Shown here: in pieces, positions 1-4,459 of the stretch
Layout: the number at the start of each line of letters is the position of its first letter
How positions within the stretch are numbered: position 1 is the stretch's first letter
Virus record (IMG/VR): IMGVR_UViG_3300029234_000155
Source: a virus
Lineage: Duplodnaviria > Heunggongvirae > Uroviricota > Caudoviricetes
Strand: one strand, 5' to 3'
Length of the DNA stretch: 4,459 nucleotides
Position numbers and translations under genes: made by a program
Notes under the pieces: model-generated
Database searches by the model: none
The model's input: only the letters and a program-made list of their open reading frames with translations
Told to the model about the DNA's origin: nothing

Positions 1-20
1 GCTTCCATCGGAAACGATGA

Positions 21-386
21 TCTGGCAGCCTGAGTTCACAGATAAAACACTCTCCAGGAAACCCGGGGCGGTTCAGTCAGCATTGCCATGGTAAGGGCGA
101 AGCCAGCACAGCGTGCAGAGGGTGTAAGGGTAAAGGGATTGTTCTGGATGAAAAAAGAACCCGGTTTCATGGCGTACCGGTATATAAGATTTGTGGGCGT
201 TGTAATGGAAACCGGTTTAGTCGTTTACCGACCACGCTGGCACGACGTCATGTCCAGAAGCTGGTACCAGACCTGACCGATTATCAGTGGTATAAGGGGT
301 ATGCGGACGTCATTGGTAAACTGGTAACAAAGTGCTGGCAGGAAGAAGCATACGCGGAAGCGCAATTGAGGAAGGTGACGAGATAA
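21..386 (+). CDS. quuQ: Phage late-gene antiterminator Q, C-terminal portion (lambda-Q-like zinc-finger domain); 5' part outside the window and reading frame interrupted near the window start
   Basis: The frame with codons starting at positions divisible by 3 is open from 21 to the TAA at 384-386. It translates to ...TACRGCKGKGIVLDEKRTRFHGVPVYKICGRCNGNRFSRLP...LVPDLT...AQLRKVTR, which matches the CxxC...CxxC zinc-binding domain and ...VTR terminus of lambda Q as I remember it. There is no ATG/GTG/TTG start in this frame inside the window, and an in-frame TGA sits at 18-20. The provided ORF track misses it because there is no start codon. Symbol by synteny with Qin, from memory. Confidence 0.65.
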   Translation, partial: SGSLSSQIKHSPGNPGRFSQHCHGKGEASTACRGCKGKGIVLDEKRTRFHGVPVYKICGRCNGNRFSRLPTTLARRHVQKLVPDLTDYQWYKGYADVIGKLVTKCWQEEAYAEAQLRKVTR

Positions 387-417
387 ATGATTTTTGCTGA
401 AGATGGCGACATGATGT

Positions 418-453
418 TTGCATTTTTCAAAAAATATGGATAAAATTTTTTCA
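418..453 (+). promoter_or_regulatory. pR'-like sigma70 late promoter with promoter-proximal pause element
   Basis: -35 TTGCAT (418-423), 17-bp spacer, -10 TAAAAT (441-446), then 6 nt to an A at 453 that begins AACGATGGG. Lambda pR' has the same geometry and the same initial transcribed sequence AACGATGGG, whose -10-like AACGAT induces the sigma70-dependent pause where Q loads (recalled from memory). It lies immediately downstream of the Q stop codon. Confidence 0.6.
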
Positions 454-491
454 ACGATGGGCTTTGTATACCCGACGTTAAGAAAAAGTAG

Positions 492-522
492 AAAACCCGC
501 TGATGAGCGGGTTTTGTGCTTT
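492..522 (+). terminator. tR'-like intrinsic terminator closing a short (about 65 nt) leader transcript from the late promoter
   Basis: Perfect 10-bp stem AAAACCCGCT (492-501) / AGCGGGTTTT (506-515) with 4-nt loop GATG, followed by GTGCTTT. Its position about 40 nt downstream of the predicted start is as expected for the terminator that Q-modified RNA polymerase reads through. Confidence 0.7.
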
Positions 523-807
523 AAATGGGGCAATGGTAATGTTGAATCTCATCCCGGGACTCATGTCTGTTAACTTATTATTTAGCTGGTGACTTGGTTA
601 TTTGCCTGATGTTTAAAATGTTTTCTTCCAGTACAATGTCCCTAAACACAATGAGTCTGCTTATTATATTATTAGCAGAGCTATTACGGCCAAAGTACAG
701 CATAAGCTTTTAAAGCCAATCAACCAGTCATCAAGACAGACGGGGTTATTCATAAAAACTCTCCATGTGTGATCCGATGGGGCCTGAAATTAAAGCTTTA
801 ATATAGC

Positions 808-1020
808 TCATGAAAGGTAAACATTGGCAGCTGAAGGGCCACGCAGACCATTTATCCGGCAAAATTCCACGCGTAATCCGGTGGTAATTTCTTCTGCATC
901 GCGGAGATTGAGCGCTGAAACATGAAGCTGGACATCGATACGACCATCGGATGGGGTGATAAGACCCTTGCCGCTTTTGCCGTCAAAGGTTTTGACAATT
1001 CCTGTCATTTTACGGGACAA
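808..1020 (-). CDS. cspF: Cold-shock-domain protein, CspF/CspH-type (70 aa)
   Basis: ORF translates to [70 protein letters not shown], with the conserved MSxKMTGxVK N-terminus and GPxAANV C-terminus of the CspA family. The start is TTG (plus-strand CAA at 1018-1020) with AAGGA 6 nt upstream; the first ATG is at codon 5. Symbol by synteny (divergent from cspB in the prophage). Confidence 0.85.
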
Positions 1021-1124
1021 AAAAATTCCTTAATACTGATAACTTGGCGCACTATACACACGTTCCTGAAGAAAGCTATAGTTTTTTGATGGGGTTGAAG
1101 ATGGCTGGATGTCTAAAATAAACA

Positions 1125-1161
1125 TTGCTTCATATGTTCAACTATGCGTTAATGATTGCGT
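1125..1161 (+). promoter_or_regulatory. cspB promoter (sigma70) with upstream AT-rich UP-like tract
   Basis: -35 TTGCTT (1125-1130), 17-bp spacer, -10 GTTAAT (1148-1153), predicted start about 1160-1161 just before CGGTTTGAAGAACAGAC. The arrangement parallels the cspA promoter (TTGCAT / CTTAAT / ACGGTTTGACGTACAGAC) as I recall it. AT-rich tract TCTAAAATAAACA lies upstream. Confidence 0.55.
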
Positions 1162-1320
1162 CGGTTTGAAGAACAGACGATATACGAAGTAGTTTACTAA
1201 AGCAGTTCTCATTTCAGGTGTTATTCACTTATTCCTTCTTTGAGTCTCTCCAATTAAGTACGAAGTCGTTTCTGTTATGCAAACCATTTATGCCGAAAGG
1301 CTCAAGTTAAGGAATGTAGA
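1161..1320 (+). promoter_or_regulatory. cspB 5' untranslated leader (about 160 nt) with cold-box-like element at its 5' end
   Basis: GGTTTGAAGAACAGAC (1163-1178) resembles the cspA cold box. The leader length of about 160 nt from the predicted start agrees with the roughly 161-nt cspB leader I recall from the literature. SD AAGGA at 1308-1312, 8 nt before the ATG. Confidence 0.5.
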
Positions 1321-1536
1321 ATGTCAAATAAAATGACTGGTTTAGTAAAATGGTTTAACGCTGATAAAGGTTTCGGCTTTATTTCTCCTGTTGATGGTAG
1401 TAAAGATGTGTTTGTGCATTTTTCTGCGATTCAGAATGATAATTATCGAACCTTATTTGAAGGTCAAAAGGTTACCTTCTCTATAGAGAGTGGTGCTAAA
1501 GGTCCTGCAGCAGCAAATGTCATCATTACTGATTAA
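1321..1536 (+). CDS. cspB: Cold-shock protein CspB (71 aa), CspA-family cold-shock-domain protein
   Basis: ORF translates to [71 protein letters not shown], with canonical RNP1-like KGFGFI and RNP2-like VFVHF motifs. ATG start with SD and long cold-shock-type leader upstream. Confidence 0.95.
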
Positions 1537-1817
1537 AATTCATCGCTCGTCTGTATACGATAACGAAGAAGGCTGATGCCTGAGTAGAGATACGGACAGA
1601 GTAGTGAATATTGGATCTCTTTAATAAAAAGTAAGGAGGTCCAATACATGAAACAATGGCTAGCATATTTGGCAAAATCTTAATCAGGAAAAGTATGCTA
1701 ACCATTGTGGTGAAGTGCAGGTTTGCTGCATGAATAGTTTTACAGCAGAAGCTAACTGCTGGCATGGCAAAACAAAGTGCGTAAGTGGATGACTCCCACA
1801 AAAAGCACCACAATCTC

Positions 1818-1843
1818 AAACCCGCTCAGGCGGGTTTTTTATT
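1818..1843 (+). terminator. Rho-independent terminator downstream of cspB (possibly also serving convergent ynfU)
   Basis: Stem AAACCCGC (1818-1825) / GCGGGTTT (1830-1837) with loop TCAG, followed by TTTATTAT, about 280 nt after the cspB stop. On the minus strand the same hairpin is preceded by an A-run and followed by only TTTGAG, so it is a weaker terminator in that direction. Confidence 0.75.
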
Positions 1844-1899
1844 ATCTGCTTTAAATATATTATTAAAATATAAAAAATACTTGTTACTAATAAAATCAA

Positions 1900-2070
1900 T
1901 CAGGCTACAGCTTTAAGATTTGTCTGGAATACTTTGTTGCAATGAGGGCAGATCAAAAGGGCACCTTTTTGTACTCTTGAAAAACTGTGTTCTGACTCTT
2001 GGGTGCAGTTTGGGCAGGAACATTTAACGAGATAATTACGGCGTGATTTTGAGTTTTTACGTTCTGACAT
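1900..2070 (-). CDS. ynfU: Small zinc-ribbon protein (56 aa), two CPxC motifs
   Basis: Minus-strand ORF MSERKNSKSRRNYLVKCSCPNCTQESEHSFSRVQKGALLICPHCNKVFQTNLKAVA. ATG is the plus-strand CAT at 2068-2070, with AGGA 7 nt upstream on the minus strand. The 73-aa form in the ORF track has an unsupported N-terminal extension. CSCPNC...CPHC is a zinc-ribbon signature. The 56-aa length matches the Qin small protein YnfU as I recall it. Confidence 0.7.
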   Translation of the reverse strand: MSERKNSKSRRNYLVKCSCPNCTQESEHSFSRVQKGALLICPHCNKVFQTNLKAVA

Positions 2071-2289
2071 AGGCTTTTCCTGTATAAATGGCCGTATACA
2101 GTACACTAAATATGAAAACATTTCTCGTATTATTATTTTATATATGACTTTCTTTCAAAATAATTACCCACATTTTTAATGTGTATGTTTTTTTAGCGCC
2201 GTTGAGAACAACGTGTGCTGTCAAAACTACCCCGTAGACTCCGATCTTTTCAAACATATTGCACCATCCGTGTACATCGGGGTGAGGAT

Positions 2290-2505
2290 ATGAAATCAAT
2301 GGATAAGTTAACAACAGGTGTTGCCTATGGCACATCGGCGGGTAATGCTGGTTTCTGGGCATTGCAGTTACTCGATAAAGTAACTCCGTCACAGTGGGCT
2401 GCAATCGGTGTGCTGGGTAGCCTGGTTTTTGGCCTGCTGACGTATCTGACAAATCTTTATTTCAAGATTAAAGAAGACAGGCGTAAGGCTGCGAGAGGAG
2501 AGTAA
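2290..2505 (+). CDS. essQ: Phage-21-type class II holin (pinholin), 71 aa, with dual-start motif (alternative start at 2299 gives the 68-aa form)
   Basis: [71 protein letters not shown]. Two TM segments, the first Gly/Ala-rich (SAR-like), and near-identity to phage 21 S21 as recalled. ATG at 2290 and 2299 (M-K-S-M) parallel the S21-71 antiholin / S21-68 holin pair. GAGGA at 2284-2288 is 10 nt before the second ATG. The GTG-initiated 96-aa extension in the ORF track is not supported. Confidence 0.9.
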
Positions 2506-2509
2506 TCCA

Positions 2510-2817
2510 ATGACTCAAGACTATGAACTGGTTGTGAAAGGAGTCCGTAATTTTGAGAATAAAGTTACGGTAACTGTAGCCTTACAGGACAAAGAACGCT
2601 TTGACGGTGAAATTTTTGACCTGGATGTCGCCATGGACCGTGTTGAAGGAGCTGCGCTGGAGTTTTATGAGGCAGCAGCCAGAAGGAGCGTCCGGCAAGT
2701 CTTCCTGGAAGTAGCAGAAAAATTGTCAGAAAAAGTTGAGTCTTATCTGCAGCATCAGTACTCCTTTAAGATTGAAAATCCTGCCAATAAGCACGAGCGT
2801 CCTCATCATAAATATCT

Positions 2818-2821
<4 letters not shown>
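2510..2821 (+). CDS. ydfR: Hypothetical protein of unknown function (DUF1327-type as I recall), 103 aa, soluble and acidic, embedded in the lysis cassette
   Basis: ORF MTQDYELVVKGVRNFENKVTVTVALQDKERFDGEIFDLDVAMDRVEGAALEFYEAAARRSVRQVFLEVAEKLSEKVESYLQHQYSFKIENPANKHERPHHKYL. AGGAG at 2496-2500 is 9 nt before the ATG. It starts 4 nt after the essQ stop, and its TGA stop overlaps the rrrQ ATG (ATGA at 2818-2821). No hydrophobic segment. Confidence 0.85.
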
Positions 2822-3845
<1,024 letters not shown>

Positions 3846-4027
3846 GGTAATATTAAATCGGAACATTTACATCGCGGAATGTAAAATTTAAATAAAAAGG
3901 ACTCTTCCATGAGCCAAAATTCCTGAAATCTTAAGGGTAAGATAAAAGGTCTTAATCAGAATGACACGTTTTATTAATAAATAAAGCTATTCTTTCATTG
4001 CTGTGTTTTTCTTTACAAAAGTAATCC

Positions 4028-4207
4028 TTGCTATGGGTGGTTAATCATGCGTTAATGGTGTTCTGGTTTGTTACAAATTTATCTGAAGCAGTCATTGTTA
4101 TAATTTTATTATTTGTACCTCTTGAGATTTCCTTGTTGGTTTTTCTCTCTGATATTTTTTTTCGGACCATTCTGCCCAAGGGCTAATTTCTTCAAAAGGT
4201 AATAATT
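4028..4207 (+). promoter_or_regulatory. cspI promoter and about 145-nt cold-shock-type 5' leader
   Basis: -35 TTGCTA (4028-4033), 17-bp spacer, -10 GTTAAT (4051-4056), predicted start about 4063 before TGGTTTG. This is the same GCGTTAATG...GGTTTG architecture as upstream of cspB in this window. The leader length of about 145 nt agrees with what I recall for cspI. AT-rich UP-like tract upstream; SD AAGG 8 nt before the ATG. Confidence 0.5.
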
Positions 4208-4399
4208 ATGTCTAACAAAATGACTGGTTTAGTGAAATGGTTTAACCCTGAAAAAGGTTTTGGTTTCATCACGCCGAAAGATGGCAGCAAAGATGTGTTT
4301 GTCCATTTCTCAGCAATTCAGAGCAACGATTTCAAAACATTAACTGAGAATCAGGAAGTTGAATTTGGTATTGAGAACGGACCTAAAGGTCCTGCCTAG
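4208..4399 (+). pseudogene. cspI: Cold-shock protein CspI gene, 3'-truncated (63 codons; last strand of the cold-shock domain missing) by IS2 insertion
   Basis: [63 protein letters not shown] stops at a TAG (4397-4399) directly after KGPA. The in-window paralog CspB continues AANVIITD after the equivalent KGPA, and CspI is about 70 aa as I recall. The TAG is the first three bases of the IS2-like terminal repeat. Confidence 0.85.
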
Positions 4400-4459
4400 A
4401 CTGGCCCCCTGAATCTCCAGACAACCAATATCACTTAAATAAGTGATAGTCTTAATACT
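4397..4459 (+). mobile_element. IS2 (IS3 family) left end: terminal inverted repeat and first about 63 bp, element continues beyond the window
   Basis: TAGACTGGCCCCCTGAATCTCCAGACAACCAATATCACTTAAATAAGTGATAGTCTTAATACT matches the IS2 left terminus as I remember it (TAGACTGGCCCCCTGAATCTCCAGACAACC...). It contains an internal 9-bp inverted repeat TATCACTTA / TAAGTGATA (4429-4448). It begins exactly where cspI loses homology to its paralog. Confidence 0.75.

What the first reader, a model, noticed from the sequence alone, without database searches (positions are those of the whole stretch)
1900..2070. Zinc-ribbon small protein gene (ynfU) on the opposite strand inside the late operon
The 56-aa ORF has a strongly basic N-terminus, two CPxC-type motifs (CSCPNC...CPHC) and its own SD. 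It lies convergent to cspB and antisense to any Q-antiterminated late transcript heading to the holin. Its function is unknown to me. Either the protein is a small nucleic-acid-binding regulator, or convergent transcription across this region modulates lysis gene expression.
Basis: partly seen in the sequence, partly recalled or inferred. Interest (0 to 1): 0.5.

Follow-up and report, generated by a model that had tools for sequence, protein, structure and literature searches.

The report
Known zinc-ribbon small protein gene ynfU
The 56-codon reverse-strand ORF is the already annotated and experimentally translated E. coli gene ynfU, a small zinc-ribbon protein of unknown function that travels with cold-shock genes as prophage cargo rather than being part of the phage lysis machinery.

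Summary
Window 1900-2070 (-) encodes the 56-aa YnfU, and bases 76-4396 are 100% identical to E. coli K-12 MG1655. It matches Pfam PF23499 (3.5e-31) and NCBIfam NF038384, and RefSeq annotates it. Its translation was shown by ribosome profiling with tagging (Weaver 2019) and by PIRT-Seq (2025). The four CPxC cysteines are invariant in 80 species-level loci, all ORFs are intact, and median dN/dS is 0.10.

The lysis-control interpretation is not supported. Only 10 of 80 loci have Q or lysis homologs nearby, and seven Pfam-annotated neighbourhoods are non-phage or, in Kosakonia, ambiguous. In phage PHB10 the gene lies next to the integrase. In this window Q itself is truncated by an IS3-family insertion.

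The gene is instead linked to cold-shock genes. 58 of 80 loci have a csp gene within 1.5 kb (38-fold enrichment), usually as ynfU> <cspB cspF>, across 46 different flank contexts. It has a conserved sigma-70-like promoter and a conserved SD. Fold and profile searches return only generic zinc ribbons.

Best reading: an autonomous cargo (moron) gene that encodes a basic Cys4 zinc-ribbon binder. The molecular target is unknown, and RNA or the ribosome is a guess.

Separately, a conserved structured RNA-like element lies in the cspB 3' region (1691-1813).

The parts
1900..2070 (-). ynfU coding sequence, 56 codons plus TGA. Cys4 zinc ribbon with knuckles C19/C22 and C41/C44 and an invariant SEHSF-R-Q-K core.
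2078..2082 (-). Shine-Dalgarno CAGGA, 7 nt upstream of the ATG.
   Evidence: Read from the sequence. Nearly invariant in 48 orthologous upstream regions.
2098..2103 (-). Predicted -10 hexamer TACTGT. The family pattern is TAnnGT, with T, A, G, T invariant.
   Evidence: alignment A2, invariant columns 43, 44, 47, 48. This is an inference; no TSS data.
2121..2126 (-). Predicted weak -35 (GAGAAA) with an invariant G at hexamer position 3, 17 nt from the -10.
   Evidence: invariant column 22. Inference.
2129..2158 (-). Alternative upstream promoter-like site, TTGAAA-18-AATAAT. Only the AAT of the -10 is partly conserved.
   Evidence: the best consensus match in the window..
1818..1837 (.). GC-rich hairpin between the convergent cspB and ynfU. 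It is a strong intrinsic terminator for the + strand (T-run follows). It is weaker for ynfU, where only TTT follows.
   Evidence: sequence.
1691..1813 (+). Conserved structured RNA-like element in the cspB 3' region. Helices: 1707-1712/1806-1811, 1715-1720/1726-1731, 1744-1748/1756-1760, 1785-1788/1796-1799. It is part of the same cassette and antisense to ynfU read-through.
   Evidence: no Rfam match
1321..1536 (+). cspB (CSD), convergent partner of ynfU. A cspA-type 5' UTR thermoregulator covers 1160-1552.
808..1020 (-). cspF (CSD), divergent from cspB. Third member of the conserved ynfU> <cspB cspF> cassette.
76..386 (+). C-terminal remnant (103 codons) of the Q antiterminator gene quuQ/ydfT, truncated by the insertion at 1-75.
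2290..2505 (+). Holin essQ/essD (Phage_holin_2_1), first gene of the lysis cassette, divergent from ynfU. Context only.

Best explanation
Shown: this is ynfU, a real, independently expressed gene that encodes a 56-aa basic protein whose core is a four-cysteine zinc ribbon. Shown: the family is a chromosomal small-protein family of Enterobacterales (Escherichia to Yersinia, Hafnia and Erwinia), not a phage family. Shown: it is monocistronic and under strong purifying selection. Shown: in most Enterobacteriaceae it lies within 1.5 kb of cold-shock-domain genes, typically as ynfU> <cspB cspF>, and this block occurs in many unrelated neighbourhoods. Inferred: Qin-type lambdoid phages picked up this block as cargo (a moron) in the usual slot between Q and the holin. 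There ynfU is transcribed from its own sigma-70-type promoter, against the direction of late transcription, so it is a lysogen-expressed accessory gene and not part of lysis control. Inferred: the zinc-held beta-ribbon presents the invariant S-E-H-S-F / R-x-Q-K face to one specific macromolecular partner. Guess: given the net charge of about +6.6, the basic N-terminal tail and the genetic linkage to Csp RNA chaperones, the partner is RNA or a ribosome/RNA-chaperone complex.
For: Identity: RefSeq annotation, Pfam PF23499 at 107 bits against a cut-off of 27, and NCBIfam NF038384. Window 76-4396 is identical to MG1655, so published K-12 data apply directly. Translation: Ribo-RET with SPA tagging found YnfU to be the most abundant of the newly found small proteins; PIRT-Seq confirmed it independently. 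Selection: all 80 ORFs are intact at 51-60 codons, C19/C22/C41/C44 are invariant, and median dN/dS is 0.096 over 554 pairs. Distribution: only 44 hits among 1.84 billion representative proteins, and the named ones are Enterobacterales. There is no PHROG family and no PADLOC hit. Context: 58/80 loci have a csp gene within 1.5 kb, at 38.7 versus 1.0 csp per 100 kb. There are 46 distinct flank contexts. Non-phage neighbourhoods were seen in Klebsiella, Enterobacter, Kluyvera, a Raoultella-like set, Yersinia and Hafnia. Only 10/80 loci have Q or lysis homologs. In phage PHB10 the same trio sits by the integrase. Autonomy: promoter-like motif and SD are conserved, and there is no conserved leader structure. 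Fold: the AF2 core has pLDDT 81-87 with four short strands, and all structural neighbours are zinc ribbons.
Confidence: 0.7

Rival explanations
1. YnfU protein is a regulator of the prophage late/lysis genes, for example a repressor or anti-holin-type factor that acts on essQ.
For: The gene sits 219 bp upstream of and divergent from the holin in this window. It sits 192 bp from a different holin in Klebsiella phage ST13-OXA48phi12.4, without csp genes. In the prophage-context loci where it flanks the lysis genes it is antisense to them.
Against: 70/80 species-level loci lack Q or lysis homologs within 6 kb. Non-phage neighbourhoods occur in six lineages: Klebsiella, Enterobacter, Kluyvera, a Raoultella-like set, Yersinia and Hafnia. 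Purifying selection is equally strong there. In PHB10 the gene is far from the lysis genes. There is no PHROG family. The Q-S interval is the generic cargo slot of lambdoid phages (established knowledge).
Confidence: 0.07
2. The act of convergent or antisense transcription across 1840-2290, not the protein, modulates late-gene expression.
For: The geometry is as described. ynfU is transcribed against the pR'-to-holin direction. Its terminator is weak on the - strand (one search lists it only for +).
Against: The protein sequence itself is under strong constraint (dN/dS 0.10, invariant Cys), so the ORF is not a by-product. The same gene is kept where there is no late operon. In this window Q is truncated by an IS element, so there is no cognate antiterminated transcript to interfere with. 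Q-modified RNA polymerase from a strong pR' would be expected to override a weak opposing promoter rather than the reverse (inference).
Confidence: 0.05
3. YnfU is a dedicated partner of the adjacent CspB/CspF proteins. Together they would form a split 'cold-shock domain plus zinc knuckle' RNA-binding system acting in cold adaptation.
For: csp genes are enriched 38-fold next to ynfU across 15 named genera. The trio is conserved through 46 flank contexts. Other small proteins next to csp genes are cold-induced (YnfR). A second family of small CxxC proteins (YmcF-like) also neighbours csp genes. Eukaryotic Lin28 and plant CSPs fuse a CSD to zinc knuckles (recalled knowledge, analogy only).
Against: 22/80 loci have no csp neighbour. 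There is no shared operon, since the genes are convergent. ynfU lacks a cspA-type leader. It is abundant at 37 C. The eukaryotic knuckles are CCHC, not a Cys4 ribbon. No interaction data exist.
Confidence: 0.2
4. YnfU serves zinc handling, as a small zinc buffer or chaperone or a Zur-regulated protein.
For: It has four to five cysteines in 56 residues. The E. coli upstream region contains GAAATGTT, a perfect left half of a Zur box as I recall the consensus (sequence at 2116-2123 on the - strand). One preprint groups ynfU with metal-related genes without evidence.
Against: The Zur-like half-site is not conserved in other genera, and the right half is missing. One structural Zn site in a ribbon is typical of a scaffold, not a buffer. 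The invariant non-Cys surface (SEHSF, K35) points to partner recognition.
Confidence: 0.05

Closest known systems
YnfU family zinc-binding protein (Pfam PF23499, NCBIfam NF038384; E. coli K-12 ynfU in the Qin prophage)
   Same: Identical sequence and locus, a full-length HMM match, the same two CPxC knuckles, and translation shown experimentally in K-12.
   Different: Nothing. This is the family's founding member. The copy here sits in a Qin segment bounded by IS3-family and IS2 insertions.
N-terminal zinc ribbon of PhnA/YjdM (PA0128, PDB 2AKL)
   Same: Best Foldseek hit and the match reported by Weaver et al.: a Cys4 ribbon with similar knuckle spacing.
   Different: Below threshold: Pfam 22.4 bits against a cut-off of 30.8, Foldseek E 0.85. 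PhnA has a large C-terminal domain that YnfU lacks, and its own function is unknown.
DNL-type zinc finger (Tim15/Zim17/Hep1, the mitochondrial Hsp70 escort protein)
   Same: The whole ribbon aligns, C-x2-C-x3-S-x-H-x2-S ... KG-x2-LI-x-CP-x-C, with PDB hmmsearch E 0.013.
Small zinc-ribbon ribosomal or ribosome-bound proteins (eL42/L44e, L37Ae, the M. acetivorans 56-aa zinc-finger protein in 9O17)
YmcF-like small CxxC proteins (PF23641; related to the ECs_2282 family) encoded next to cspG and cspI
   Same: About 60 aa, CxxC pairs, encoded beside cold-shock genes. In Kluyvera one lies directly next to ynfU.
   Different: A different family with no detectable sequence relationship. They lie on the downstream side of cspG/cspI-type genes.
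Lambdoid phage morons in the Q-S interval or near att (for example stx, bor, lom)
   Same: An autonomous transcription unit with its own promoter and terminator, inserted between phage operon genes, variable among related phages, and expressed in the lysogen.
   Different: Those morons have known host-fitness functions. No phenotype is known for ynfU, and the family is mainly chromosomal.

Membership tests
YnfU family (PF23499 / NF038384) | Full-length match to the family HMM above the curated cut-off | tested here: met
   Pfam 107.3 bits (cut-off 27), residues 1-49 of 49. NCBIfam 79.4 bits (cut-off 36).
YnfU family (PF23499 / NF038384) | Two CPxC knuckles with four conserved cysteines in a protein of about 51-60 aa | tested here: met
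   C19, C22, C41 and C44 are invariant in 80 species-level loci, and the ORFs are 51-60 codons. The same holds in distant members.
YnfU family (PF23499 / NF038384) | The product is actually translated | not testable with these tools
   Literature only: Ribo-RET with SPA-tag immunoblot and PIRT-Seq. The window DNA is identical to K-12.
Zinc ribbon fold | Two beta-hairpins, each carrying a CxxC knuckle | tested here: met
Zinc ribbon fold | Binds one Zn(II) through four Cys | not testable with these tools
   Needs metal analysis of purified protein.
DNL-type zinc finger (PF05180) | HMM score above the gathering threshold and a D(N/H)L motif after the second knuckle | tested here: not met
   13.5 bits against a cut-off of 27, and only profile positions 3-36 of 64 matched. 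The C-terminal tail is variable with no DNL motif.
PhnA/YjdM zinc ribbon (PF08274) | HMM score above the gathering threshold | tested here: not met
   22.4 bits against a cut-off of 30.8. Foldseek E 0.85 to 2AKL.
Lambdoid late/lysis module component | Consistent co-occurrence with Q, holin, endolysin and Rz genes | tested here: not met
   10/80 loci have such homologs within 6 kb. Six lineages show non-phage neighbourhoods. There is no PHROG family.
Phage moron (cargo transcription unit) | Own promoter and terminator, and presence or absence varying among related phages and positions | tested here: inconclusive
   A conserved promoter-like motif and SD and a hairpin at 1818-1837. The gene is present in 8 of 50,697 phage records, at two different genome positions. 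Promoter activity was not measured.
Cold-shock (CspA-type) regulon | Long structured cspA-like 5' UTR and cold induction | tested here: not met
   Rfam cspA thermoregulator hits occur only at cspB and the cspI-like gene. No conserved leader structure lies upstream of ynfU. Cold induction itself was not testable.
Anti-phage defence systems (PADLOC) | Match to any defence-protein model | tested here: not met
   0 families at E <= 1.

The most novel reading that the evidence does not exclude
YnfU, the cspB/cspF pair and the structured RNA element in the cspB 3' region form one functional mobile module. In this reading the zinc-ribbon protein acts together with, or on, the Csp RNA chaperones or their mRNA. 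This would be a bacterial 'split' analogue of the eukaryotic CSD-plus-zinc-knuckle RNA binders, spread among Enterobacteriaceae by lambdoid phages.
Probability: 0.15. Interest if true: 0.55.

Novelty: already known. Interest (0 to 1): 0.27.

Why it matters
The finding re-discovers an annotated gene, so it adds little as it stands. YnfU is one of the best-expressed recently found small proteins of E. coli, and its function is still unknown. The comparative result here gives a concrete direction for experiments. The family is chromosomal, and it is tightly linked to cspB/cspF in a block that lambdoid phages carry as cargo. That points towards cold, RNA or ribosome phenotypes and away from phage lysis. 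The conserved RNA-like structure in the cspB 3' region has no Rfam family and may be worth its own study.

Tried and rejected
1. A conserved RNA structure or thermosensor in the ynfU leader. E. coli has a 7-bp hairpin that overlaps the SD, but RNAalifold finds no consensus structure in 48 sequences. The E. coli fold is not better than shuffles (z = -1.0). Rejected.
2. The 73-aa upstream start is not conserved.
3. Sigma-32, sigma-54 and sigma-E promoter readings of the conserved upstream motif. Spacing or a conserved -35 is lacking (inspection). The genomic SELEX peaks for RpoH and RpoE holoenzymes in the essQ-cspB spacer are about 100-250 bp from the predicted promoter, by my coordinate conversion, and have low resolution. 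I kept them only as weak evidence that RNA polymerase binds the region.
4. A Zur box: only an E. coli-specific half-site.
6. A conserved operon partner: none, since the gene is always monocistronic. The 67-75-aa upstream ORFs in Kosakonia, Kluyvera, Hafnia and PHB10 are homologous only between Kluyvera and PHB10.
7. Reading the conserved block at 1691-1813 as a small ORF. Start and stop codons are not conserved. Rejected in favour of an RNA structure.

Full report
1. WHAT THE WINDOW IS
The window is the late region of a Qin-type lambdoid prophage. Bases 76-4396 are identical to E. coli K-12 MG1655. The features, in order:
- The 3' 103 codons of the Q antiterminator gene quuQ/ydfT (76-386 +).
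- cspF (808-1020 -).
- cspB (1321-1536 +), with its cspA-type 5' UTR (Rfam RF01766, 1160-1552).
- ynfU (1900-2070 -).
- The holin essQ/essD (2290-2505 +).
- ydfR (2510-2821), the lysozyme rrrQ (2818-3351) and rzpQ (3348-3845).
- A cspI-type gene starting at 4208.

The two ends are not Qin. Bases 1-75 are the end of an IS3-family element, which puts an in-frame stop into the Q reading frame. Bases 4397-4459 replace the MG1655 sequence and truncate the cspI-type gene. From memory I recognise them as the left end of IS2.

2. THE OBSERVATION
The ORF is exactly as described. It has 56 codons with ATG at 2070 and TGA at 1902-1900. The SD AGGA lies 7 nt upstream. The N-terminus is basic (6 K/R in the first 16 residues), and the whole protein has pI 9.6. 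The motifs CSCPNC and CPHC are present.

It is not a chance ORF, for four reasons.
- It matches Pfam PF23499 'YnfU' at 3.5e-31 and NCBIfam NF038384.
- RefSeq annotates it as ynfU, and the region is present in 1653 of 5426 complete E. coli genomes.
- In 80 loci from different species the ORF is always intact (51-60 codons; 78 start with ATG and 2 with GTG). The four knuckle cysteines are invariant.
- Non-synonymous change is about ten-fold suppressed: median dN/dS is 0.096 over 554 pairs, and synonymous sites are saturated against E. coli.

The fifth cysteine, C17, is dispensable. It is lost in two of the five Atlantibacter loci, in one Citrobacter freundii locus, and in Yersinia, Hafnia, Erwinia and Cronobacter. 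The invariant core is CPxC-x3-S-E-H-S-x3-R/K-x-x-K-x3-L-x-CPxC-x2-(L/F)-F.

3. WHAT IS ALREADY KNOWN
- Weaver et al. 2019 (bioRxiv 10.1101/511675) found ynfU by ribosome profiling of stalled initiation complexes and tagged it. YnfU was the most abundant of their new small proteins. They noted the two CPXC zinc knuckles and a moderate modelling match to the zinc domain of PA0128.
- PIRT-Seq confirmed translation independently (PMC12350097).
- No paper found in the held library assigns a function.

The finding is therefore a correct re-identification of a known gene.

4. WHERE THE FAMILY LIVES
The family is small and narrow. A profile search of 1.84 billion representative proteins gave 44 hits. 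The named ones are all Enterobacterales, reaching Yersinia, Hafnia, Erwinia, Cronobacter, Mangrovibacter and Jejubacter. It has no PHROG family and no PADLOC match.

Of 80 species-level loci, only 10 have homologs of this window's Q, holin, lysozyme or Rz genes within 6 kb. These are Escherichia/Shigella, two Citrobacter, Superficieibacter and one Yokenella. The Pfam-annotated neighbourhoods elsewhere are mostly ordinary chromosome:
- Klebsiella: between a Cys/Met-metabolism operon and a PTS operon.
- Enterobacter: next to a tautomerase.
- Kluyvera: between thrS-infC-rpmI-rplT-pheST and pfkB.
- A Raoultella-like set: next to the acetoin operon.
- Yersinia: next to dsbB.
- Hafnia: next to DUF2058.
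- Kosakonia: beside an HSP20 gene, with a tail-spike-domain gene about 4 kb away, so this one is ambiguous.

The gene is always monocistronic.

5. THE REAL LINKAGE IS TO COLD-SHOCK GENES
58 of 80 loci have a cold-shock-domain gene within 1.5 kb of ynfU. That is 38.7 csp genes per 100 kb there, against 1.0 per 100 kb in the rest of the same loci.
- 40 loci have a cspB-type gene convergent just downstream.
- 26 have the full arrangement of this window, ynfU> <cspB cspF>.

The block occurs in 46 different pairs of flanking sequence, so it moves as a unit.

Eight of 50,697 phage records carry ynfU.
- 2H10 shows the window's Q-cspF-cspB-ynfU-holin layout. Four further Escherichia phages (Tritos, HannyBb, PhiR42_1, PhiR63_1) carry a near-identical ynfU, but I did not inspect their layout.
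- PHB10 has the trio between umuDC and the integrase, far from the lysis genes.
- A Klebsiella phage has ynfU alone, divergent from an unrelated holin.

Established knowledge: both phage positions are the usual cargo slots of lambdoid phages.

6. EXPRESSION SIGNALS
An alignment of 48 upstream regions from many contexts shows sequence conservation but no structural conservation. There is an invariant G at position 3 of a -35-like hexamer. Seventeen nt downstream lies an invariant TAnnGT, followed by CC, then CAGGA and ATG. RNAalifold predicts no pairs.

In the window this puts the -35 at 2126-2121, the -10 at 2103-2098 and a leader of about 20 nt. The consensus scan prefers a site further upstream (2158-2129), which is only partly conserved. 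No TSS data were available.

The hairpin at 1818-1837 is a good terminator for cspB and a weaker one for ynfU.

7. STRUCTURE AND RELATIVES
The second AF2 model has mean pLDDT 75.6, with 81-87 in the core. It is a four-stranded zinc ribbon with a short helix at 30-35.

Every comparison returns generic zinc ribbons at insignificant scores:
- Foldseek against PDB: PA0128, LysW, the ATCase regulatory chain and eL42, all with E > 0.8.
- BFVD: E > 0.03.
- PDB sequence profile search: Tim15 at 0.013 and L44e at 0.032.

The DNL-finger resemblance covers the ribbon, but the motif that defines that family is missing. No functional transfer is justified.

8. INTERPRETATION
Shown:
- ynfU is a real gene that encodes a Cys4 ribbon and is under purifying selection.
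- The family is mainly chromosomal.
- It is tightly linked to csp genes and appears only occasionally in phages.

Inferred:
- In this prophage it is cargo, expressed from its own promoter in the lysogen.
- It is not a lysis regulator.
- Here no cognate Q-dependent late transcript can exist, because Q is disrupted.

Guessed: the protein recognises a specific RNA, ribosome or protein partner through the invariant SEHSF/R-Q-K face, possibly in connection with Csp function.

The main caveat is that in the prophage contexts where it flanks the lysis genes the gene is antisense to them, and in most prophage and phage contexts it lies near the holin. A local role there is therefore not excluded.

9. 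SIDE FINDING
A roughly 120-nt block (1691-1813, + strand) lies between the cspB stop codon and the terminator. It is conserved at 70-80% identity across Kluyvera, Kosakonia, Enterobacter, Citrobacter, Superficieibacter, Yokenella, Scandinavium and the phages PHB10 and 2H10.
- It folds into four helices with compensatory changes. 90.6% of cells are paired, against at most 63% when the partners are slid.
- The covariation score is 0.273, against 0.192 in shuffles, with 0 of 500 shuffles as high.
- Many G-U pairs place it on the cspB strand.
- A covariance model finds it in 22 of the 90 sources searched. In every case where I compared positions it lies downstream of a cspB-type gene in that gene's sense, including one locus where ynfU lies elsewhere.
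- Rfam has no match.
- It is not a conserved ORF.

10. VERDICT
Interest is low to moderate.

Noticed in passing
window 1691-1813 (+), followed by the terminator at 1818-1837: A conserved structured RNA-like element of about 120 nt lies in the cspB 3' region, with four helices and compensatory changes. It occurs in at least eight genera and two phages, lies downstream of cspB-type genes wherever I compared positions, and has no Rfam family. It could be a 3'-UTR element or a 3'-UTR-derived sRNA.
   Followed up: partly
window 1-75 and 76-386: The Q antiterminator gene (quuQ/ydfT) is truncated by the end of an IS3-family element. Only the last 103 codons remain and the reading frame meets a stop at 18-20. 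This prophage therefore cannot make its own Q. No complete E. coli genome in the collection had this exact junction as one contiguous match.
   Followed up: partly
window 4397-4459: The cspI-type gene that starts at 4208 is cut after codon 63 by foreign sequence, which I recognise from memory as the left end of IS2 (TAGACTGGCCCCCTGAATCTCCAGACAACC...). This was not checked against an IS database.
   Followed up: no
window 1634-1683 (+): A near-perfect SD (AAGGAGGT) lies 7 nt before an 11-codon ORF (MKQWLAYLAKS*) in the cspB 3' region. This stretch is specific to Escherichia; other genera lack it. It is not annotated in MG1655.
   Followed up: partly
L085 5392-5580 (MG1655, just downstream of cspI); L087 5676-5852: A second family of roughly 60-aa CxxC proteins (Pfam YmcF-like, PF23641) is also encoded next to cold-shock genes. 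In Kluyvera one lies immediately beside ynfU. Small zinc-type proteins seem to be a recurrent companion of csp genes.
   Followed up: partly
window 417-446 and 492-525 (+): Just after the Q stop codon there is a promoter-like site (TTTGCA-18-TAAAAT). It is followed by a GC hairpin with a T-run (AAAACCCGCTGATGAGCGGGTTTTGTGCTTT). This is the expected pR'/tR' pair of the late operon. The known small ORF ynfS lies just downstream of it, at about 664-753 on the - strand.
   Followed up: no
window 2116-2123 (- strand; upstream of ynfU): GAAATGTT matches the left half of the E. coli Zur box as I recall the consensus. The right half is absent, and the motif is not conserved in other genera.
   Followed up: yes
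L007, L029, L039, L041 (genome contigs): Records titled Veillonella, Vagococcus, Kocuria and Bacillota carry enterobacterial ynfU loci, some on very short contigs. They are probably contaminating or mis-binned contigs in those assemblies.
   Followed up: no
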